A stretch of DNA of 64,000 nt from an uncultured Candidatus Saccharibacteria bacterium (GCA_964607655.1 CAZSKX010000001.1:83434-147433), one strand, 5' to 3'. Shown: positions 29,815 to 40,671, counted from the stretch's first letter. Numbers and translations are program-made. The notes: generated by a model not told the origin, from the letters alone.

Positions 29815-30900
29815 ATGGCAACAGCAAAAAAGGCCGGAAAATCAATCAAATCGAAGGGTGTCAAGACCCAGGCGGCCTCTTTCTCTTTCGATAGTAATGC
29901 GCTGGTGAAAAAGCTGCTTGCGGCCGCTCCTGAGCGTAGCCGTAAGGTGCTGATGCAGCGCTTCGGCCTCGGCACTGACGCTGAGCGCGAGACCCTCGAG
30001 GCGATCGGGGATCGTTTGAATATTACGCGCGAGCGCGTTCGCCAGATCGAGGCAGCTGGTCTCTCAGCGATCCGCGCGAGCAAGGCCTTCAAGGAGGCTT
30101 CAGGAGCTTTTGATGAGATCAAGGAGCACATTGAGTCGATCGGCGTGATCATTTCTGAAGAGGAGCTCTTCACGATGCTCGGCAAGGATGAGAAGACGCG
30201 CAATCGTTTCAGGTTCCTCCTCATGGTCGGGTCGTCCTTCCTCCGCGAGCGCGAGACTGATGAGTTCCTCGCGCGCTGGCATGTCGACCACGCTACGGCT
30301 TCGAAGATTCACGAAGCACTTACGCGCCTCTACTCCTCACTCAAGGACGACGAAGTATTTACTGAAGCAGACCTCCTCGATCGTTTTCTTGATGAACTTA
30401 AGACGGTTAATGACGCCTACAAGAACGAAGAGGTTTTGAAGCGTTGGCTCTCCCTCTCTAAGGGTATCGGCAGCAATCCGCTCTCACAGTGGGGTAAGAC
30501 GAGCGCGCCGGCGATCCACATCAAGGGCATTCGCGATTACGCCTACCTCGCGGTAAAGCGTCACGGTAAGCCGATGCACTTCTCTGATGTATCGAAGGCG
30601 ATCGCACAGCTCTTCTCAAAGAAGGCACACGTTGCGACCACGCACAACGAGCTCATTAAGGACCCTCGCTTCGTGCTTGTTGGTCGTGGCCTCTACGCGC
30701 TCACCGAATGGGGCTACCAGCCGGGCGTGGTGCGCGACGTGATCAAGGAGGTGCTCGACAAGAACGGTCCATTGAAGAAGGACGACATCATCAAGCACGT
30801 TCGTCTCGCACGCTTCGTGAAGGACAATACGATTTTGGTGAACTTAAACGATTCGCGCTACTTTAAGCGCATGAAGGACGGACGTTTTGCAGTCGCGTAA
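29815..30900 (+). CDS. Sigma-70 region-4-like HTH DNA-binding protein with a long C-terminal winged-helix-like extension (CPR-typical sigma factor-like HTH protein).
   Basis: RFGLGTDAERETLEAIGDRLNITRERVRQIEAAGLSAIR (sigma region 4.2-like) at the N-terminus. No sigma regions 2/3. Confidence 0.5.
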   Translation: MATAKKAGKSIKSKGVKTQAASFSFDSNALVKKLLAAAPERSRKVLMQRFGLGTDAERETLEAIGDRLNITRERVRQIEAAGLSAIRASKAFKEASGAFDEIKEHIESIGVIISEEELFTMLGKDEKTRNRFRFLLMVGSSFLRERETDEFLARWHVDHATASKIHEALTRLYSSLKDDEVFTEADLLDRFLDELKTVNDAYKNEEVLKRWLSLSKGIGSNPLSQWGKTSAPAIHIKGIRDYAYLAVKRHGKPMHFSDVSKAIAQLFSKKAHVATTHNELIKDPRFVLVGRGLYALTEWGYQPGVVRDVIKEVLDKNGPLKKDDIIKHVRLARFVKDNTILVNLNDSRYFKRMKDGRFAVA

Positions 30901-30940
30901 GTACTAGAAACACCCGCGGCTCCGAAGGAGCCGCGGGTGT

Positions 30941-32329
30941 TTGCTATACTGGGTGCATTATATGGCTTCGCTCTTTGAAAGCGTCGACAAGAAAGTTGAA
31001 AAGCTGAGTGACAATTTCAGCATTAAGTTTGAAGCACGGCCGGTGTTCGTGGCGGTGCTGGTGGTCATCCTCGCGTTGAGCATGGTGTTCCCGGAGGTGG
31101 CTTCAGTCGCCATCAAGGGAGCGCTTTTCCTTGCGCCGGTATGGCTTCCTTTTCTTGTAGTCGGAGGAGCGATCGAGATGTGGTACATCCTTAAACAATC
31201 CGAATTTCTTTCCAATCAGAAATATATCCTGCTTGAGATTAAGCCTCCGCGTGAGCTCGTGAAGACGCCGCTCGCGATGGAGGCATTTATCTCGACGCTG
31301 CACCTTACCGGAGGCGAGAGTAACTGGTGGCAGAGGATTACGGGCGGCCTGCGCCCACACTGGTCGCTCGAGATAGTCTCCTTTGAAGGACAAGTACACT
31401 TCTTTATCTGGGGCAGGGCAAACTTCCGTCGACTGGTGGAAAGCCAGCTCTATGCGCAGTACCCTGGAACTCAAGTGGTAGAGGCGATCGATTATACGCG
31501 GACGATCTCAGCAACACCGGAAGAATGGTTTGTCTGGGGCGTTGATTTCAAAGCCCTCGATGCCGATCCCTTACCGATCAAAACGTACGTCGAGTACGGG
31601 CTCGAGAAGACTCAGAAAGAGCCCGAGCAGATCGACCCGCTTGCGAACCTCATCGAGTTTATGGGCTCGATCGGGAAAGGAGAGTATCTCTGGCTGCAGT
31701 ACGTTATCCGTGCTCACAAAGGGGAAAAGTATCATAAGCTCAACAAAGAAGGTAAGCCTTTTACCTGGGCTGACGAAGGGAAGGAGTTGATAGAAAAAAT
31801 TCGTGCTAAAACGCGCGATCCGTATCTCGATCCGGCGACGGGAGAGGAGCGGCCCGGCTTCCCGAACCCTACTAAAGGACAGTCTGAGAAAATTGCTGCG
31901 ATTGAACGTAACACAGGAAAACTCGCGTTCGACGTCGGGATTCGTGCGGTGTACATCACCAAGCACGACAAAGTGAACGGAGGTACGATCACCCACCTGA
32001 TTGCTCTCTTTAAACCCTTCACCAATACCGGCTGGAACGGTCTCGACTCCACAGGATGGCTAAAAAACTTTAACGATTACCCGTGGGATGCCTTTTGGAC
32101 GAACCGAAAGAAGGAGCACTATCGGCGGGAGCTTGTCGAGGCGTATCGCCGACGTCAGTACTTCTACCACCCTCGCTTCGAAGGGGCGCTAAAAGCAAGT
32201 AAGACTATGGTGATGAGTACGGAGGAGCTCGCAACGATATATCACATCCCGTCACGCTCGGTCGAGACGCCAGGACTCGGTCGTATCGCCTCGACGACAA
32301 GCGAAGCACCGGTTAATCTTCCTATATAA
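30941..32329 (+). CDS. Hypothetical membrane-anchored protein (462 aa).
   Basis: Long intact ORF with two N-terminal TM helices, immediately downstream of the HTH protein. No recognisable domain. Confidence 0.45.
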   Translation: MLYWVHYMASLFESVDKKVEKLSDNFSIKFEARPVFVAVLVVILALSMVFPEVASVAIKGALFLAPVWLPFLVVGGAIEMWYILKQSEFLSNQKYILLEIKPPRELVKTPLAMEAFISTLHLTGGESNWWQRITGGLRPHWSLEIVSFEGQVHFFIWGRANFRRLVESQLYAQYPGTQVVEAIDYTRTISATPEEWFVWGVDFKALDADPLPIKTYVEYGLEKTQKEPEQIDPLANLIEFMGSIGKGEYLWLQYVIRAHKGEKYHKLNKEGKPFTWADEGKELIEKIRAKTRDPYLDPATGEERPGFPNPTKGQSEKIAAIERNTGKLAFDVGIRAVYITKHDKVNGGTITHLIALFKPFTNTGWNGLDSTGWLKNFNDYPWDAFWTNRKKEHYRRELVEAYRRRQYFYHPRFEGALKASKTMVMSTEELATIYHIPSRSVETPGLGRIASTTSEAPVNLPI

Positions 32330-35619: not shown

Positions 35620-36543
35620 ATGGAAGTGAAAGGGAAAGAGGTTTTTGTCGGGCTCTCAGGCGGAGTGGACTCCGCTGTTTCGGCGGCGCTTCTTAAGGAG
35701 CAGGGAGCGGCGGTCATCGGGGTGTTTATTAAGGGGTGGTACCCACCGGGTATGCCCTGCACCTGGGCGGCAGATCGTCGCGATGCGATGCGGGTAGCTG
35801 CTCGGCTACAGATCCCATTCCGCACGCTCGACGCGAGCGCTGAATATAAAAAAGCGGTTATCGACTACCTGCTTGAGGAATATCGTGCGGGACGTACTCC
35901 AAATCCCGACATCATGTGTAATAAGGAAGTGAAGTTCGGTGCGTTTTATCGTTATGCCATCAAAGAGGGTGCGGACGCGATCGCAACCGGACACTATCTC
36001 CAGGGAGAAAAAGACCAGAGATACTTTCTCTGGGCGGTGCCTAGAGAGGCGCTCGAGCGGACCATCTTTCCAGTGGGGCAGATGGAGAAGGGCGAGGTGC
36101 GACGACTCGCCAAGAAATATCGACTGCCGGTAGCAGAGAAGAAGGACAGTCAGGGTGTTTGCTTCCTTGGATCGATATCGGTTAAAGAATTTCTCGAACA
36201 CGAACTACGTACCGATAACCCAGCGGTCCTTCACACGCTCGGAGAAAAGGTGAACGGTCAGTATGTGATCGCTAAGAATATAGAAAAGCGAGAAATAACC
36301 CTCGCGCCGACGCTCGAGATCACGATACGGGAGATTCGCTTTACCAAAGCTAATTGGCAGCGAGACGCAGACGAGGCGGTTGAGGCGCAGACGCGCTATC
36401 GGGGCCCACGCCTCTCAGGACGGATCGACCGAGATCGCTTCGTTGCCGACGAAGCGCTTCCTGAGCTAGCTGCGCCGGGACAGTCGATCGCCTTCTATAA
36501 TTGTCGCGGGGAACTCGTTGGGGGTGGTATCATTATTGGATGA
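35620..36543 (+). CDS. mnmA: tRNA-specific 2-thiouridylase MnmA.
   Basis: PP-loop VGLSGGVDSAV. MnmA catalytic Cys region (NPDIMCNKEVKFG) and C-terminal barrel domain. Confidence 0.85.
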   Translation: MEVKGKEVFVGLSGGVDSAVSAALLKEQGAAVIGVFIKGWYPPGMPCTWAADRRDAMRVAARLQIPFRTLDASAEYKKAVIDYLLEEYRAGRTPNPDIMCNKEVKFGAFYRYAIKEGADAIATGHYLQGEKDQRYFLWAVPREALERTIFPVGQMEKGEVRRLAKKYRLPVAEKKDSQGVCFLGSISVKEFLEHELRTDNPAVLHTLGEKVNGQYVIAKNIEKREITLAPTLEITIREIRFTKANWQRDADEAVEAQTRYRGPRLSGRIDRDRFVADEALPELAAPGQSIAFYNCRGELVGGGIIIG

Positions 36544-36944
36544 ATCATAAGCGTTTGTACCTCGCCGCGGCGATTATCGCGGGCGTTCTGGTGATCGGTT
36601 TCATACTTTCTGTGCCTCGGGTGCGCGATGGCGAGGTGCCTAAGGAGACGGTAGAAAGTACGATCCTGCCACCCGTTGCTCTCCGCGACACCTACAAAAA
36701 AGGTACCCACACGATCACGGGCACAGTGACTGCGCCGAACGCCTGTGCCACGCTCGAGGCGACCGCTACGACTACCGGCGATCCCGTCAGCGCGATCGTT
36801 ATCGAGCTCACTCTTAGAGAAGAAGGAGGGATTTGTCTGCAGGCGTCTACGCCACTCAAGTTCTCTACGACCGTTACTGCACCCGAAGGATTGCCGGTCA
36901 GCGCGATGGTGAACGGCGTTGTCGCGACAACGACCGCGCTATGA
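36540..36944 (+). CDS. Hypothetical secreted/membrane-anchored protein.
   Basis: Signal/anchor MNHKRLYLAAAIIAGVLVIGFILS. Thr-rich. Confidence 0.4.
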   Translation: MNHKRLYLAAAIIAGVLVIGFILSVPRVRDGEVPKETVESTILPPVALRDTYKKGTHTITGTVTAPNACATLEATATTTGDPVSAIVIELTLREEGGICLQASTPLKFSTTVTAPEGLPVSAMVNGVVATTTAL

Positions 36945-37810
36945 CAAGCCTCCCGACGATTATTAAGGCCGATGGAACGCGCGAGGTCTTTGATCCGATG
37001 CGTTTAGTCGGGTCACTCGCGCGTGCGGGCGCGCCCGAGCACGTCGCCGAGAGGATTGCCGAGACGGTGACGAAGACGATCGCGCCTGGCTCGACATCGC
37101 GTGAGATCTACACCCGAGCGTTTACAATGCTTCGGCACGAGGCGCGACCGGTCGCCGCTCGTTATGCGCTGCGTCGCGCACTCTTCGAACTCGGGCCGAC
37201 GGGGCACCCCTTTGAGGATTTGGTCGCTCACCTCTACCGCGCTCTCGGCTGGAGCGTAGAGACGCGAAAGATTATCAAAGGTCACTGCGTGTCTCACGAG
37301 GTCGACTTCTACGCCACCAGTCCAGATGGTAAGGAGCATATTGCCGCTGAGCTTAAGTACCATAACGATCCTGGGTACAAGACTGACTTGAAGGTGGCGC
37401 TTTATGTAAAAAGCCGGTTTGACGACATATTTGATTGTGATCCGACGGTGCGCGCCTGCCCGATTGATCGCGGGCTTCTCGTAACGAACACCAAGTTTAC
37501 GACCGAGGCGATCGCATACTCCGAATGCGCGGGAGTAGAGCTTCTTGGGTGGGGGTATCCGCTCGGCAATAGTCTTTTTATGCAAATGAGCAAGGCGAAC
37601 ATTTATCCGATCACCACGCTCACGGGTCTCTCACGCTCAGAGAAACGCCTTCTTATCGATCAAGGAACGATTGCGGTCGACCAGCTCTTGAAGGATCGCC
37701 GGACGCTCACGCCGCTTCATCTGCCGCCCGAGCGGGTAGGGGAGCTCTTGGCCGAGGCAGACGGGCTCCTCTCGCTCCCGCACGCGCTGGAAGATCCAGT
37801 AACTGAGTAA
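36941..37810 (+). CDS. ATP-cone domain fused to an Mrr-like (restriction endonuclease-fold) catalytic domain and a C-terminal HhH-like tail.
   Basis: ATP-cone IIKADGTREVFDPMRLVGSLARAGAPEHVAERIAETV. Mrr_cat-like ALGWSVETRKIIKGHCVSHEVDFYATSPDGKEHIAAELKYH. ATGA overlap with the upstream gene. Confidence 0.6.
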   Translation: MTSLPTIIKADGTREVFDPMRLVGSLARAGAPEHVAERIAETVTKTIAPGSTSREIYTRAFTMLRHEARPVAARYALRRALFELGPTGHPFEDLVAHLYRALGWSVETRKIIKGHCVSHEVDFYATSPDGKEHIAAELKYHNDPGYKTDLKVALYVKSRFDDIFDCDPTVRACPIDRGLLVTNTKFTTEAIAYSECAGVELLGWGYPLGNSLFMQMSKANIYPITTLTGLSRSEKRLLIDQGTIAVDQLLKDRRTLTPLHLPPERVGELLAEADGLLSLPHALEDPVTE

Positions 37811-37811
37811 T

Positions 37812-38597
37812 ATGGCACGTACTAGCAAACTTTTTGATCCTGCGTCGACCGAGCCCTTCACGCTCAGTCGCTCGAAGCTCGATCTCTTCTGCGAGTGTCC
37901 GCGCTGTGCGTATCTCGACCTTCGCCTTGGCGTGAAGCGTGTGTCGGGACCCTCATTCACGCTCAACAACGCGGTCGACGAACTCTTCAAACGTGAATTC
38001 GACGCGCATCGTACCGAGAAAACTCCGCACCCACTGATGAAGGCGTACGGGCTCGACGCAGTCCCCTTCGACGACGAGCGCATGGAGGAGTGGCGCGATG
38101 CGCTCCGCCGCGGCATCAAGGTTCATCATCAGCCAACGAATCTAATCTTGCGCGGAGGTATCGACGATGTTTGGGTCACGCCCACAGGCGAGTTGATCAT
38201 CGTCGACTACAAGGCGACAAGCAAGAAGGTGGGGCCGAGTACCGAGGACGATCTGTACGACGCATACAAACGCCAGCTTGAAATTTATCAATGGCTCTTC
38301 CGCGGTAACGGCTTCACGGTCTCGCCGACGGGCTATTTTGTATATGCGAACGGACTGTCTGATAAAAAAGCTTTTGACGGCAAGCTCGAGTTCGATGTCG
38401 TGCTCGTCCCCTACACGGGCAGCGACGCGTGGGTCGAAGGGAAGCTGATAGCTCTCAAAGAGATGCTCGTGAGCGACGAGATCCCTCCAGTAGGCACCGC
38501 CTTTGGTGGTGGCCCCTGCGACTTTTGCAGCTACCGCGAGGCGGCGGGGAAGGCTCTTAAAGAAGCTCATGCAAAGCAGAAGAGCAACGGGAAGTAA
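37812..38597 (+). CDS. Cas4/RecB-like PD-(D/E)XK nuclease with Fe-S cluster cysteines.
   Basis: N-terminal CECPRCAY and C-terminal GGPCDFCSY cysteines; IIVDYKATSKK (D-x-K) and QLEIYQWLF (QxxxY) motifs. Confidence 0.6.
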   Translation: MARTSKLFDPASTEPFTLSRSKLDLFCECPRCAYLDLRLGVKRVSGPSFTLNNAVDELFKREFDAHRTEKTPHPLMKAYGLDAVPFDDERMEEWRDALRRGIKVHHQPTNLILRGGIDDVWVTPTGELIIVDYKATSKKVGPSTEDDLYDAYKRQLEIYQWLFRGNGFTVSPTGYFVYANGLSDKKAFDGKLEFDVVLVPYTGSDAWVEGKLIALKEMLVSDEIPPVGTAFGGGPCDFCSYREAAGKALKEAHAKQKSNGK

Positions 38598-38847
38598 CTT
38601 TGCGGAGCGTGTGCGTGAGGCGGTGCGCCAGATCCCAAAAGGAGAGACGCGCAGCTACGCAGAGGTGGCAGCGGCAGTGGGGCACCTGGGTGCCGCGCGA
38701 GCAGTAGGCACAATCATGAAAAATAATTACGATCCGACCGTGCCATGTCATCGCGTTGTCCGTAGTGACGGCACCATCGGTGCTTACAACCGCGGCGGCC
38801 CTTCTAAAAAACGCGCGCTCCTTAAGGCTGAGGGGGCGATGGTGTGA
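38569..38847 (+). CDS. ogt: Methylated-DNA-protein-cysteine methyltransferase (Ogt/MGMT) DNA-binding/active-site domain protein, small form.
   Basis: Active-site motif PCHRVV with flanking YAEVA...GHLGAARAVG...NRGGPSKK. Confidence 0.6.
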   Translation: MQSRRATGSNFAERVREAVRQIPKGETRSYAEVAAAVGHLGAARAVGTIMKNNYDPTVPCHRVVRSDGTIGAYNRGGPSKKRALLKAEGAMV

Positions 38848-39518
38848 GTATGGAAGTGAAGATTGAACAGAGCTGGAAGGAGCGCCTGAAAGGGGAGTTT
38901 GAGCAGGAGTATTTTAAAGAACTCACCGAGTTTGTTAAGAACGAATACAAAGAGGGGGCAGTATACCCAGCGCCGAAGAGTATTTTTAGAGCCTTTGATC
39001 TATGCTCATTTGATCAGGTGAAGGTGGTGATCCTCGGGCAGGACCCGTACCACGGGGCAGGGCAGGCGAACGGCCTCTGCTTCGCTGTGAACGACGGCGT
39101 GGCGCTCCCGCCCTCGCTGCAGAATATTTTCAAAGAGATCGAGAGTGACCTCGGCAAGCCGCTCATGCACCGTTCCGGGGATCTCACTCGGTGGGCCGAG
39201 CAGGGCGTGTTGCTCTTGAATGCGACGCTCACAGTCCGCGCCAGCACCGCGGGCTCGCATCAGAATCACGGCTGGGAGCAGTTTACCGACGCGGTCATCA
39301 AGGCGCTCGCTGAGGAGCGTGAGAATCTGGTTTTTATACTCTGGGGGAATTACGCGAAAGCGAAGGGCGCACACATCGATCGTTCCAAACACCTCGTGCT
39401 CGAGTCGGCGCACCCGTCCCCGTTCTCGGCCTACAGGGGCTTCTTCGGCTCGAAGCCGTTTAGCAAGACGAACGAGTATCTGGCCGCGTGCGGTGAGACA
39501 CCGATCAATTGGTTGTAG
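38844..39518 (+). CDS. ung: Uracil-DNA glycosylase, family 1.
   Basis: VVILGQDPYHGAGQANGLCFAV water-activating loop, HPSPFSA (HPSPLS-like) motif. Confidence 0.85.
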   Translation: MSMEVKIEQSWKERLKGEFEQEYFKELTEFVKNEYKEGAVYPAPKSIFRAFDLCSFDQVKVVILGQDPYHGAGQANGLCFAVNDGVALPPSLQNIFKEIESDLGKPLMHRSGDLTRWAEQGVLLLNATLTVRASTAGSHQNHGWEQFTDAVIKALAEERENLVFILWGNYAKAKGAHIDRSKHLVLESAHPSPFSAYRGFFGSKPFSKTNEYLAACGETPINWL

Positions 39519-39603
39519 CGCTTGACACCAGTCCTTCGATATGCTACGGTAATCAGCGGCAAGATCCACAAATCACCAGCCTAGAGCTGGCCAAAGGAGC
39601 ACC

Positions 39604-40011
39604 ATGCACGGATCGGATTTGCAACTGATACCCATTTCTTCGCGTGGGCGCGCCGCGCTCAAGCACACCAAGAAGCATGACAGGCGTCGGCTCGAGGAAG
39701 AAGAGGTCAACGACTTCGACCCTGGGTTCGATTTTCCGGGCGAGCGTTTCTACGTCGCTCGGAGCGAGATGGACAAGGACTTCGATCTCCTCGACAACTT
39801 CGGCCAGAGGCGCTACGTCAGCCTGTTCGATCTCGATGACGAGGAAGAAGACCTCGGTCCGTACGATCGTCGTGGCCAGCTCGTCGGCGATCCCGACCCC
39901 GGCATGGACTGGTGGTTCTCAAGCGAGAACGACTGGCCCGATGACGAGGACGACTTCGGCTACGAGCTCGGCCGTCGCGACGAAAGGTTCATCGAGTCGG
40001 CTGCGGACTGA
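39604..40011 (+). CDS. Acidic hypothetical protein (135 aa).
   Basis: Intact ORF; Asp/Glu-rich. Hairpin GGCGGGGGCCG...CGGCCCCCGCC downstream (40018-40047). Confidence 0.35.
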   Translation: MHGSDLQLIPISSRGRAALKHTKKHDRRRLEEEEVNDFDPGFDFPGERFYVARSEMDKDFDLLDNFGQRRYVSLFDLDDEEEDLGPYDRRGQLVGDPDPGMDWWFSSENDWPDDEDDFGYELGRRDERFIESAAD

Positions 40012-40095
40012 ACCGTTCGGGCGGGGGCCGTTACAGCGGCCCCCGCCAAGAACAAATCTCTTCGATACAGTGGTATCTGAAGGGATTTTTTAATT

Positions 40096-40671
40096 TTGTA
40101 TACTAGGCACATGAACCATACGCCACAGATCAAGAAGGCGATACAGTTTGCCGCGCGTAAGCACCACGGCCAGATGCGTCGGGAGACTGAACCCTTGCCG
40201 TACATCACGCACCCGTTTTCAGTAGCGATCTTGGTGGCTGAAGATGGTGCTGAGGATGATGTGGTCACCGCTGCGCTCCTGCACGACGTGATCGAAGATA
40301 CGGGTACGACACGAGAAGAGATCGTTGAAGCTTTTAATGAGCATGTCGCGGCACTCGTTCAAGCAGTCACCGAGCCTAAAGACCTCGAATGGCGAGAGCG
40401 TAAAGAGGCGTATTTTAAAAATCTCCAGACCGCGCCCGTAGAAGCGTTGCTCGTCATGGCCGCGGACAAGATCGACAATATTGAGAGTAAGATCGAGGCG
40501 TATGAGAAGGAGGGGGAGGGTCTGTTTGCGCGCTGGCAGCGGCCAAAAAGTGACTATCTCTGGTATCACGGCGAGGCGCTCCGGCTGGCCGAAGAACGCA
40601 TTCCTGAGCATTCGCTCACCAAGCGTCTTGCCGAAGCACACGAGCGGGAGAAGCAGATTTTTGGCAGCTAG
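40096..40671 (+). CDS. HD-domain phosphohydrolase (RelA/SpoT-like HD_4; putative (p)ppGpp hydrolase).
   Basis: H...HD metal-binding motifs: KHHGQMRRETEPLPYITHP ... LLHDVIEDT. Leaderless-looking start after TGTATACT. Confidence 0.65.
   Translation: MYTRHMNHTPQIKKAIQFAARKHHGQMRRETEPLPYITHPFSVAILVAEDGAEDDVVTAALLHDVIEDTGTTREEIVEAFNEHVAALVQAVTEPKDLEWRERKEAYFKNLQTAPVEALLVMAADKIDNIESKIEAYEKEGEGLFARWQRPKSDYLWYHGEALRLAEERIPEHSLTKRLAEAHEREKQIFGS

What the first reader, a model, noticed from the sequence alone, without database searches (positions are those of the whole stretch)
36941..39518. ATP-cone::Mrr-like endonuclease fusion in an overlapping operon with a Cas4-like Fe-S nuclease, an Ogt-like MGMT and UDG
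Four plus-strand genes are chained with overlapping starts and stops (ATGA at 36941; 37810/37812; 38569 inside 38597; 38844/38847). The first fuses an ATP-cone, the allosteric (d)ATP sensor of NrdR and ribonucleotide reductases, to a restriction-endonuclease-fold (Mrr_cat) domain plus an HhH-like tail. That implies a nuclease whose activity is gated by nucleotide pools. The second is a stand-alone Cas4/RecB-type PD-(D/E)XK nuclease with N- and C-terminal cysteine pairs, the Fe-S cluster signature. The third and fourth are Ogt-like and Ung. No CRISPR array or cas1/cas2 is nearby. Either this is a DNA-repair island or a nucleotide-sensing defence/restriction module.
Basis: partly seen in the sequence, partly recalled or inferred. 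Interest (0 to 1): 0.6.

Follow-up and report, generated by a model that had tools for sequence, protein, structure and literature searches.

The report
ATP-cone nuclease beside DNA-repair genes
Four tightly packed genes in a tiny-genome (CPR/Paceibacteria) bacterium encode a nuclease with an ATP/dATP-sensor domain, a Cas4/RecB-type exonuclease, a short alkyl-transferase and uracil-DNA glycosylase; this is a conserved housekeeping block, not a phage-defence system, and the sensor-nuclease belongs to a very large, database-annotated family that has never been characterised.

Summary
All four plus-strand genes exist at the stated coordinates and every domain call passes its HMM threshold. G1 (36941-37810) is ATP-cone + Mrr_cat/AF1548-type PD-(D/E)XK nuclease + AF1548-like helical tail. 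The AF2 model has pLDDT 96, and E92/D122/E137/K139 are invariant in 97 diverse relatives.

The window is a Kaiserbacteria/Paceibacteria genome. The order mnmA-x-G1-(x)-G2-(G3)-UDG is kept in 76 of 80 species and persists down to ~40% G1 identity. Three points weaken the case for a coupled system:
- Flanking housekeeping genes are equally syntenic.
- An unrelated membrane-protein gene separates G1 and G2 in most relatives.
- Overlapping junctions are normal in this 92%-coding genome.

I found no methyltransferase next to the cluster, and no CRISPR array, complete PADLOC system or phage copy. G1-G4 are the best-conserved proteins of the region. The defence reading is therefore not supported.

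Outside Paceibacteria (Bacteroidota, Chlamydiota, an archaeon) G1 lacks G2-G4. There it often precedes a beta-CASP nuclease, an AMP/thymidine-phosphorylase-like gene and a PRPP-synthetase-like gene.

Most likely G1 is a housekeeping, adenine-nucleotide-gated nuclease that is autonomous and lies next to a small DNA-repair trio. It is a new member of a known, uncharacterised architecture. Interest is moderate to low.

The parts
36501..36944 (+). Upstream 147-aa ORF (start uncertain) with an N-terminal membrane anchor and no Pfam/NCBIfam hit. Its stop overlaps the G1 start (ATGA). Not part of the nuclease/repair set.
   Evidence: Conserved upstream of G1 in 78/80 relatives at about 47% identity.
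36941..37810 (+). G1: 289-aa ATP-cone::AF1548/Mrr_cat PD-(D/E)XK nuclease::AF1548-like C-terminal helical domain.
   Evidence: Pfam. PDB 1Y88 by sequence, E 1.7e-19. AF2 model pLDDT 96.3. Foldseek hits to 1Y88, NrdR and RNR cones. Family alignment A1.
36956..37177 (+). ATP-cone domain of G1 (residues 6-79). The lid and helix-1 positions are I7, K9, G12, E15, F17 and R21 (K in the family).
   Evidence: PF03477 26.4 bits. Superposes on NrdR cones at 1.7-2.2 A over about 84 residues. K9 and G12 are invariant; F17, K21 and T53 are at least 90% conserved. The equivalent NrdR residues K53, E59, F61 and K65 contact adenine.
37193..37555 (+). Nuclease core of G1 (about residues 85-205). It contains the invariant linker/helix-1 motif LGPxGxPFE (G85, G88, F91, E92) and the catalytic residues E120, D122, E137-x-K139. 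R159, D162 and N183 are also invariant.
   Evidence: AF1548's predicted catalytic D38/E51/K53 (PMC1821046) align with D122/E137/K139.
37556..37807 (+). C-terminal helical domain of G1 (about residues 206-289), homologous to the AF1548 C-terminal domain (Pfam AF1548-like_C in relatives). Presumed DNA-binding.
   Evidence: The phmmer alignment to 1Y88 extends to residue 274. Five helices in the model. PF22357 is annotated on homologues.
37812..38597 (+). G2: 261-aa RecB/Cas4/EXO5-type PD-(D/E)XK nuclease with a four-cysteine site (C29-x2-C32 ... C236-x2-C239).
   Evidence: PDDEXK_1 44.3 bits. Cas4 equivalog only 28.4 bits vs cut-off 65. Invariant D118/D119, D132-Y-K134, Q155..Y159 and the four Cys. 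Model pLDDT 87.9. Foldseek hits to AdnAB, RecE, Cas4, EXO5 and AddB.
38569..38847 (+). G3: 92-aa single-domain MGMT-family protein (C-terminal DNA-binding/active-site domain only, PCHR motif present).
   Evidence: PF01035 99.4 bits; TIGR00589 79.1 bits. Present in 40/80 close relatives.
38844..39518 (+). G4: family-1 uracil-DNA glycosylase (Ung). The start is GTG 38844 or ATG 38850.
   Evidence: NF003592 332 bits vs cut-off 162. Present in 65/80 relatives.

Best explanation
The locus is a conserved core-genome block of a Paceibacteria (CPR) bacterium. It is not a mobile or defence module.

G1 is one member of a very large, uniformly built but experimentally uncharacterised family. Its architecture is an N-terminal ATP-cone, an AF1548/Mrr_cat PD-(D/E)XK nuclease core with an intact E-D-ExK active site, and an AF1548-like helical tail.

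The most likely mechanism has three steps:
1. The cone binds adenine nucleotides (ATP/dATP).
2. As in NrdR and ribonucleotide reductases, binding changes the oligomeric state or the domain packing through the invariant LGPxGxPFE junction.
3. This switches a non-sequence-specific nuclease on or off according to the cell's nucleotide status.

G1 acts autonomously. G2 (a RecB/Cas4-type nuclease; 5'->3' exonuclease activity is assumed from family knowledge), G3 (single-domain MGMT) and G4 (Ung) form a small DNA-repair trio that lies next to G1 by conserved synteny. At most they share the general theme of DNA maintenance or turnover with it.

Shown: domain identities, fold, conservation of the active site and cone lid, synteny, core-like conservation, and absence of defence hallmarks.

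Inferred: nucleotide binding, gating by oligomerisation, DNA as substrate, and any cooperation with G2.
For: Domain identity and fold:
- Domains pass their HMM cut-offs.
- The C-terminal two-thirds matches AF1548 by sequence (E 1.7e-19) and by fold (TM 0.78).
- The N-terminus superposes on NrdR/RNR ATP-cones at 1.7-2.2 A.
- The model has pLDDT 96.3 and pTM 0.92.

Conservation of functional residues:
- E92, E120, D122, E137, K139, K9 and G12 are invariant across 97 representatives at 32-71% identity.
- The cone-lid positions match the adenine-contacting residues of E. coli NrdR.

Family size and uniformity:
- 1038 clusters at 50% identity, 376 of them with E<1e-30. The 150 best listed are mostly ~270-310 aa and match nearly the full length of G1.
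- More than 7500 clusters at 90% identity around a Bacteroidota member.

Housekeeping character:
- The window encodes Hsp70/DnaJ/GrpE, aminoacyl-tRNA synthetases, ribosomal proteins and RpoA.
- The order mnmA-up147-G1-G2-UDG is kept in 76-78 of 80 species.
- Median identities are G1 72%, G2 73%, G3 71% and G4 74%, against 47-66% for flanking genes.

Autonomy of G1:
- 67 of 76 close relatives have 0.4-3.2 kb inserted between G1 and G2, usually a 158-aa membrane protein gene.
- Some Paceibacteria keep mnmA-G1 without G2/G3/UDG.
- 60 of 80 diverse metagenome loci lack G2-G4 altogether.

Against defence:
- G1 has no PADLOC hit and no complete system appears among the 70 window ORFs.
- There are no phage matches, no CRISPR-like repeats and no full-length viral fold match.
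Against: - No biochemical data exist for any family member. AF1548 is a structural-genomics 'protein of unknown function'.
- The ATP-cone HMM score is only just above threshold.
- The second basic residue of the canonical cone 'KR' motif is Ala/Ser in this family (A10). The ligand could therefore differ from ATP/dATP.
- G1-G2 adjacency does persist to ~40% G1 identity in Paceibacteria. In other phyla a different nuclease (beta-CASP) occupies the +1/+2 position. This could mean that G1 does work with a downstream nuclease, which would argue against full autonomy.
- The substrate (DNA or RNA) is untested.
Confidence: 0.55

Rival explanations
1. G1 is the gated entry enzyme of a nucleic-acid turnover / nucleotide-salvage route and has no functional tie to G2-G4. 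When the adenylate or dATP pool is out of balance, G1 opens nucleic acid. A processive nuclease then produces (d)NMPs, and the ribose-phosphate is recycled. In this CPR genome only G1 of that route sits at this locus.
For: - Outside Paceibacteria the commonest neighbour is a 457-aa beta-CASP/RMMBL nuclease at +1/+2 on the same strand. It occurs in 20 loci, roughly half of those with enough downstream sequence.
- Annotated plasmids of Pontibacter (Bacteroidota) and Criblamydia (Chlamydiota) carry the same cassette: ATP-cone protein, MBL-fold hydrolase, thymidine-phosphorylase-family protein, ribose-phosphate pyrophosphokinase.
- A third genome has G1-LGT-TP-Prs.
- The TP homologue scores 495 bits on the AMP-phosphorylase model.
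- Usp and P-type ATPase genes recur nearby.
Against: - None of beta-CASP, TP or Prs is at the window locus.
- Contexts in Bacteroidota are heterogeneous. G1 is solitary in Sporocytophaga and lies next to a cation ATPase in a Flavobacterium.
- Orthologues at ~40% identity may have diverged in role.
- In the window's clade every identifiable neighbour downstream acts on DNA damage.
Confidence: 0.27
2. G1-G4 is a true co-functional DNA-repair operon. G1 nicks at or near lesions or abasic sites left by Ung, or at stalled structures. G2 resects 5'->3'. G3 reverses alkylation. The ATP-cone restricts cutting to times when dNTPs are available for repair synthesis.
For: - There are tight or overlapping junctions and only a weak + strand terminator-like pattern inside G4.
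- G1-PDDEXK-MGMT-UDG recurs at 40-45% G1 identity.
- The UDG slot is filled by family 1 in some lineages and family 4 in others.
- An archaeal homologue sits between LigD_N and EndoIII genes.
Against: - The obviously unrelated mnmA and AlaRS genes are just as syntenic, or more so.
- Unrelated genes (a TM protein, MgtC, HAD) are inserted between G1 and G2 in most lineages.
- G1 persists without the trio in one Paceibacteria subclade and in all other phyla.
- Overlaps are the genomic norm.
Confidence: 0.12
3. It is a nucleotide-sensing restriction or anti-phage module. G1 would be a type IV/Mrr-like restriction enzyme triggered by pool changes during infection, with G2 as a Cas4-like accessory.
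For: - There is an Mrr_cat HMM hit.
- The fold resembles MspJI/AspBHI catalytic domains and ligand-gated Can2.
- G2 has weak Cas4 PADLOC hits.
Against: - G1 has no PADLOC hit.
- There is no modification-reader domain and no methyltransferase in the flanking genes.
- There is no CRISPR array or cas1/cas2.
- G1 has a fixed position in a housekeeping block in 80/80 species, and is more conserved than MnmA.
- The family is absent from 50,697 phage records.
Confidence: 0.04

Closest known systems
AF1548 of Archaeoglobus fulgidus (PDB 1Y88; Pfam Mrr_cat + AF1548-like_C)
   Same: G1 residues 94-274 align to it at E 1.7e-19 and the fold match has TM 0.78. It has the same D...ExK triad (predicted D38/E51/K53, PMC1821046) and the same helical C-terminal domain.
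   Different: The solved AF1548 chain is 199 aa and its match to G1 begins after G1's ATP-cone, so it appears to lack a cone. It is itself functionally uncharacterised, so the match names the fold and not the function.
ATP-cone of NrdR and ribonucleotide reductases
   Same: The fold superposes at 1.7-2.2 A over about 84 residues. The lid and helix-1 residues that cover adenine in E. coli NrdR (K53, E59, F61, K65, L66) correspond to K9, E15, F17, R/K21 and L22. The expected mode of action is nucleotide-driven oligomer switching.
   Different: The cone is fused to a nuclease rather than a Zn-ribbon or a reductase. The canonical second basic residue (KR) is A/S. The HMM score is only marginally above threshold. 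Ligand binding is untested.
Mrr / type IV restriction endonucleases (Mrr_cat; MspJI, AspBHI catalytic domains)
   Same: The catalytic-domain family is the same: PF04471 25.6 bits vs cut-off 21, with Foldseek hits.
   Different: There is no N-terminal modified-DNA reader domain. The gene is not in a defence island, is fixed in the core genome and has no PADLOC hit. It shares the catalytic fold but is not a restriction system.
Can2/Card1-type CARF nucleases (ligand-gated PD-(D/E)XK nucleases)
   Same: The design logic is the same: a small-nucleotide sensor domain fused to a PD-(D/E)XK nuclease. Can2 appears among the fold hits (E 2.6e-3).
   Different: The sensor is an ATP-cone, not CARF. There is no CRISPR type III context. 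The similarity is confined to the nuclease core, and this is an analogy rather than family membership.
Cas4 / AddB / AdnAB / EXO5 / RecE nucleases (for G2)
   Same: G2 has the RecB-type motifs (D118/D119, D132-Y-K134, QxxxY). Fold hits include AdnA/B, RecE, SSO0001 Cas4, type I-C Cas4, EXO5 and AddB. Four conserved cysteines bridge the N- and C-termini.
   Different: G2 scores below the Cas4 equivalog cut-off (28 vs 65 bits). There are no cas genes nearby. The cysteine pattern is CxxC...CxxC rather than C...CxxCx5C, so the metal (Fe-S or Zn) is undetermined.

Membership tests
ATP-cone (PF03477) | Profile HMM score at or above the gathering threshold | tested here: met
   26.4 bits vs 25.8, residues 6-79. 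The margin is small.
ATP-cone (PF03477) | Beta-hairpin lid plus four-helix cone fold | tested here: met
   The AF2 model (pLDDT 96) superposes on NrdR and RNR cones at 1.7-2.2 A over about 84 residues.
ATP-cone (PF03477) | Binds ATP/dATP | not testable with these tools
   Lid residues K9, E15, F17 and K/R21 are conserved, but R10 of the KR motif is A/S. Binding must be measured.
PD-(D/E)XK nuclease, Mrr_cat/AF1548 family | Profile or sequence match and fold | tested here: met
   PF04471 25.6 bits vs 21. 1Y88 E 1.7e-19. TM 0.78.
PD-(D/E)XK nuclease, Mrr_cat/AF1548 family | Intact catalytic E/D...(D/E)xK residues | tested here: met
   E92, D122, E137 and K139 are invariant in 97 sequences. They align with AF1548 D38/E51/K53.
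Type IV (Mrr-like) restriction / anti-phage defence system | Modified-DNA reader domain, defence-island or patchy distribution, match to defence-system models | tested here: not met
   There is no reader domain and no PADLOC hit for G1. The gene has a fixed syntenic position in 80/80 species. There are no phage copies.
Type II R-M system | Cognate DNA methyltransferase adjacent | tested here: not met
   The flanking genes are mltG, mnmA, a TM protein, G2-G4, an HD_4 hydrolase, M16 peptidases and hypothetical ORFs. None matched a methyltransferase model.
Cas4 (TIGR00372) for G2 | Equivalog score at or above the cut-off | tested here: not met
   28.4 bits vs 65.
Cas4 (TIGR00372) for G2 | CRISPR-cas context | tested here: not met
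   No cas1/cas2 among 70 ORFs. No arrays.
RecB/Cas4/AddB-type Fe-S nucleases (G2) | Four-Cys cluster with the C...CxxCx5C pattern that binds [4Fe-4S] | tested here: inconclusive
   Four Cys are conserved (C29/C32 invariant; C236/C239 at least 90%), but in a CxxC...CxxC arrangement. The metal is not determinable here.
Ogt/MGMT (G3) | C-terminal DNA-binding domain with the PCHR active site | tested here: met
   PF01035 99.4 bits; TIGR00589 79.1 vs 46.4. The PCHR motif is read in the translation.
Ogt/MGMT (G3) | N-terminal Ogt domain | tested here: not met
   The protein is 92 aa and the domain starts at residue 10. Full-length Ogt/Ada equivalogs score far below their cut-offs.
Family-1 uracil-DNA glycosylase (G4) | Equivalog HMM at or above the cut-off over the full length | tested here: met
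   NF003592 332.3 bits vs 162, residues 3-223.

The most novel reading that the evidence does not exclude
The ATP-cone::AF1548 nucleases may be a previously unrecognised class of adenylate/dATP-gated nucleases. They would open nucleic acid for a downstream nuclease: Cas4/RecB-type in Paceibacteria, beta-CASP in Bacteroidota and Chlamydiota. Together these would form the regulated entry point of a nucleic-acid-to-PRPP salvage route, with an AMP-phosphorylase-like enzyme and a Prs-like kinase, used under energy or oxygen stress. For CPR bacteria such a route would feed the nucleotide economy (from general knowledge, many are reported to depend on salvage; not tested here).
Probability: 0.2. Interest if true: 0.65.

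Novelty: new member of a known kind. Interest (0 to 1): 0.35.

Why it matters
For the scan, this finding is largely explained. It is a correctly read but ordinary, conserved housekeeping cluster of a CPR bacterium, and its headline architecture is already present in Pfam and NCBI annotation ('ATP cone domain-containing protein', 'restriction endonuclease').

Its residual value is at the family level. Thousands of uniform ~280-aa proteins across CPR, Bacteroidota, Chlamydiota and at least one archaeon combine the classic dNTP-pool sensor with an intact nuclease, and nobody has tested what they cut or what switches them. If the cone really gates cutting, it would extend ATP-cone allostery beyond nucleotide synthesis (RNR/NrdR) to nucleic-acid breakdown. 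Cultured Bacteroidota such as Pontibacter and Flavobacterium carry the gene and could serve as experimental hosts.

Tried and rejected
- Defence reading. PADLOC on G1-G4 and neighbours and on all 70 window ORFs gave only weak generic hits (Cas4-like for G2, DEDDh, RecD/PIF1-like, a sigma-factor fragment) and no complete system. The phage collection gave no match. The viral structure library matched only separate Mrr-like or RNR-cone domains.
- CRISPR search. TRF and an interspaced direct-repeat search found nothing.
- RNA elements. There were no Rfam hits and no tRNAs in the window.
- Literature. Searches for ATP-cone with nuclease or restriction endonuclease, for 'ATP cone domain-containing protein' and for AF1548 found no functional study. 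The only relevant item was the GOS paper's prediction that AF1548 is a restriction-like nuclease.
- Burkholderia lxa locus. I recalled it as a possible home of the Usp/ATPase/acetate-kinase context. The paper mentions no ATP-cone, MBL or phosphorylase gene, so this stays an unverified analogy.
- A limitation of my own making. Distant contexts had to come from the metagenome scan and from exact look-ups.


Full report
**Observation.** ORF listing and direct reading of the four junctions confirm a chain of plus-strand genes.
- An upstream 147-aa ORF ends at 36944 and overlaps the G1 start (ATG 36941) as ATGA.
- G1 ends at 37810, and G2 starts at 37812 after a 1-nt spacer.
- G3 starts at ATG 38569, 29 nt before the G2 stop at 38597.
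- G3 stops at 38847. G4 starts at GTG 38844 or, more probably, at ATG 38850.

All domain calls are supported:

| Gene | Model | Score | Cut-off |
|---|---|---|---|
| G1 | ATP-cone | 26.4 bits | 25.8 |
| G1 | Mrr_cat | 25.6 bits | 21 |
| G2 | PDDEXK_1 | 44.3 bits | 22 |
| G3 | MGMT C-terminal domain | 99.4 bits | 27 |
| G4 | Ung equivalog | 332 bits | 162 |

The window is about 92% coding. Of 46 same-strand junctions, 20 are 10 nt or shorter and 12 overlap. Tight chaining is therefore typical here and is weak evidence for a functional operon. The ORF that overlaps G1 is an unrelated membrane-anchored protein.

**Source organism and setting.** The best homologues of G1 and G2 come from Candidatus Kaiserbacteria, Paceibacterota and Parcubacteria MAGs. 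The rest of the window encodes Hsp70/DnaJ/GrpE, LeuRS, AlaRS, ribosomal proteins, RpoA, type IV pilus parts and similar genes. There are no tRNAs, Rfam hits, tandem arrays or CRISPR-like repeats.

**Anatomy of G1.**
- Residues 94-274 match the structural-genomics protein AF1548 (PDB 1Y88) at E 1.7e-19.
- An AlphaFold model built on 97 diverse family members has pLDDT 96.3 and pTM 0.92.
- Foldseek returns 1Y88 first (E 7.6e-13, TM 0.78). It then returns the catalytic domains of MspJI and AspBHI, Can2, and Bax1. The N-terminal 84 residues match the ATP-cones of NrdR and several RNRs at 1.7-2.2 A.
- Across representatives sharing only 32-71% identity with G1, these residues are invariant: K9, G12, G85, G88, F91, E92, G114, E120, D122, E137, K139, R159, D162, N183 and P223.
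- D122/E137/K139 align with the D38/E51/K53 triad predicted for AF1548 (PMC1821046).
- The cone-lid residues I7, K9, E15, F17, R/K21 and L22 correspond to V51, K53, E59, F61, K65 and L66. These cover the adenine in E. coli NrdR.
- The canonical second basic residue of the cone's KR motif is A/S in this family.

The nuclease is therefore almost certainly catalytically competent, and the cone plausibly binds an adenine nucleotide. Neither property was tested or can be tested with these tools.

**Family size.** An exhaustive search of 50%-identity representatives found 1038 clusters (376 with E<1e-30). The 150 best listed are mostly ~270-310 aa and match nearly the full length of G1. A search seeded with a Bacteroidota member hit more than 7500 clusters at 90% identity. 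Public names include 'ATP cone domain-containing protein', 'restriction endonuclease', 'ATPase' and 'Holliday junction resolvase'. Precomputed Pfam strings read ATP-cone + Mrr_cat + AF1548-like_C. The architecture is thus already catalogued. I found no functional study of it.

**G2-G4.**
- G2 carries the RecB-type motifs (invariant D118/D119, D132-Y-K134, Q155...Y159). It also has four conserved cysteines arranged CxxC (29/32) ... CxxC (236/239).
- The G2 model (pLDDT 87.9) matches the AdnA/AdnB nuclease domains, RecE, SSO0001 and type I-C Cas4, human EXO5, AddB and lambda exonuclease.
- G2 is far below the Cas4 equivalog cut-off (28.4 vs 65 bits). Its 2+2 cysteine pattern differs from the Cas4/AddB 1+3 pattern, so 'Fe-S' remains open.
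- G3 is a 92-aa single-domain MGMT-family protein with PCHR.
- G4 is a bona fide family-1 Ung.

**Conservation of gene order.** The table below counts genes found in window order in 80 species-level genomes carrying a 66-81% identical G1.

| Gene | Present in the same order |
|---|---|
| mnmA | 78 |
| upstream TM ORF | 78 |
| G2 | 76 |
| mltG | 70 |
| Ung | 65 |
| MGMT | 40 |
| HD_4 hydrolase | 32 |

Only 9 of 76 relatives have G1 directly followed by G2. Another 58 carry a ~0.5-kb insertion encoding a 158-aa membrane-anchored protein, and 9 carry 1.3-3.2 kb.

At greater distance (G1 40-45% identical) the frame sigma-like-DUF8128-YceG-MnmA-G1 ... AlaRS persists. The interior of that frame varies:
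- G1-PDDEXK-MGMT-UDG.
- G1-x-MgtC-PDDEXK-HAD-MGMT.
- G1-UDG4.
- G1-MgtC-...-AlaRS, with no repair gene.

The UDG slot is family 1 in Kaiserbacteria and one other lineage, and family 4 elsewhere (TIGR00758 179 bits vs cut-off 125). However, the unrelated mnmA is linked to G1 at least as faithfully as G2 is. The synteny therefore does not single out G1-G2 as a functional pair.

Median identity across the 80 species is 72, 73, 71 and 74% for G1-G4. It is 47-66% for the flanking genes. That is the signature of constrained core genes, not of fast-evolving defence genes.

**Contexts outside Paceibacteria.** I ran a metagenome scan with a consensus-first alignment. It returned 80 loci, and 60 of them have neither mnmA nor G2-G4.
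- Neighbour clustering with Pfam/NCBIfam labelling shows a beta-CASP/RMMBL nuclease at +1/+2 in 20 loci. That is roughly half of the loci with enough downstream sequence.
- Usp proteins lie upstream in 12 loci. P-type ATPases occur in 9, thymidine/AMP-phosphorylase-like genes in 6, and MgtC/DUF4010 proteins recur as well.
- Two annotated plasmids from different phyla carry the same run: ATP-cone protein, MBL-fold hydrolase, thymidine-phosphorylase-family protein, ribose-phosphate pyrophosphokinase. They are from Pontibacter actiniarum and Criblamydia sequanensis.
- Another genome has G1-LGT-TP-Prs.
- Other members are solitary or sit beside a cation ATPase.
- An archaeal member lies between LigD_N and EndoIII genes.

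**Defence tests.**
- G1 has no PADLOC hit, and G2 has only weak Cas4-like hits.
- Scanning all 70 window ORFs gives no complete system.
- No flanking gene matched a methyltransferase model.
- The family is absent from 50,697 phage records and has no full-length match among predicted viral structures.

**Interpretation.** The best-supported reading (confidence about 0.55) is as follows. G1 is a housekeeping, autonomous member of the ATP-cone::AF1548 nuclease family. Its cutting activity is set by adenine-nucleotide binding to the cone, most plausibly through oligomer or domain rearrangement transmitted by the invariant LGPxGxPFE junction. It sits by conserved synteny next to a small DNA-repair trio (RecB/Cas4-type nuclease, MGMT, Ung).

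The rivals are:
- A role for G1 in gated nucleic-acid turnover or nucleotide salvage, unrelated to G2-G4 (0.27). This is supported by the cross-phylum beta-CASP/TP/Prs cassette.
- A true co-functional repair operon (0.12).
- A defence or restriction module (0.04).

The first two rivals share the gating mechanism with the main reading. They differ only in physiological role and partner.

**Novelty and verdict.** The window's gene is a new member of a catalogued but uncharacterised architecture. The four-gene cluster is an ordinary conserved block of Paceibacteria genomes. Interest is moderate to low (0.35). It rests on the family being large, uniform and untested, and on the possibility that ATP-cone allostery also governs nucleic-acid breakdown.

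Noticed in passing
L168 (Pontibacter actiniarum plasmid NZ_CP021236.1) 1972-6597; L169 (Criblamydia sequanensis plasmid NZ_LK031773.1) 7995-12602; L171 5001-9103: A cassette conserved across phyla: ATP-cone nuclease, beta-CASP/RMMBL MBL hydrolase, thymidine/AMP-phosphorylase-like protein, PRPP-synthetase-like protein. It is embedded among phosphoketolase, acetate kinase, glycogen phosphorylase, P-type ATPase, Usp and 2-hydroxyacid dehydrogenase genes. It looks like a stress or low-oxygen island with a nucleic-acid-to-PRPP salvage module.
   Followed up: partly
L127, L138, L146, L151, L157, L159, L164, L167 (+1 to +3 of G1) compared with window 38844-39518: The UDG position downstream of G1/G2 is occupied by family-4 UDG in many Paceibacteria. 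It is occupied by family-1 Ung in Kaiserbacteria (and in L161). This is an apparent in-place swap of non-orthologous uracil glycosylases.
   Followed up: partly
L004 6867-7343, L007 3208-3690 and about 56 other loci, between the G1 and G2 orthologues: A conserved ~158-aa protein with an N-terminal TM helix and the motif VESVTVPPPGVWVAVRE...LYRDDNNGxFD has no Pfam hit (a related sequence was scanned). It is inserted between G1 and G2 in most Kaiserbacteria but is absent from the window.
   Followed up: partly
window 39519-40095: A 577-nt stretch between ung and the HD_4 hydrolase gene holds two overlapping ORFs: 39604-40011, 135 aa and extremely acidic (D/E-rich); and 39644-40093, 149 aa and S/T/R-rich. 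The acidic ORF has no Pfam/NCBIfam/PADLOC hit and no tblastn match in 80 related genomes, where ung is often directly followed by HD_4. It may be a lineage-specific gene (a DNA-mimic-like acidic protein next to Ung?) or non-coding filler.
   Followed up: partly
L081 7123-7656; L098, L105, L106, L112, L150 (+1/+2 of G1); L091, L097, L120, L136, L166: MgtC-family or DUF4010 membrane proteins recur next to G1 homologues, both in Paceibacteria and in the Bacteroidota-type contexts. This is unexplained.
   Followed up: no
window 29815-32329; L081 372-2926; L084 1490-3867: A Sigma70_r4 + HARE-HTH/RNAP-delta-like protein followed by a DUF8128 protein forms a conserved pair. In the distant Paceibacteria loci L081 and L084 the pair sits directly upstream of YceG-MnmA-G1. 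In the window the second gene (30941-32329) has no NCBIfam hit, and its DUF8128 identity was not checked individually.
   Followed up: no
window 40096-40671: A 191-aa stand-alone HD_4 (RelA/SpoT-type hydrolase domain) protein lies downstream of the cluster. It is probably a small alarmone hydrolase and is syntenic in 32/80 relatives.
   Followed up: no
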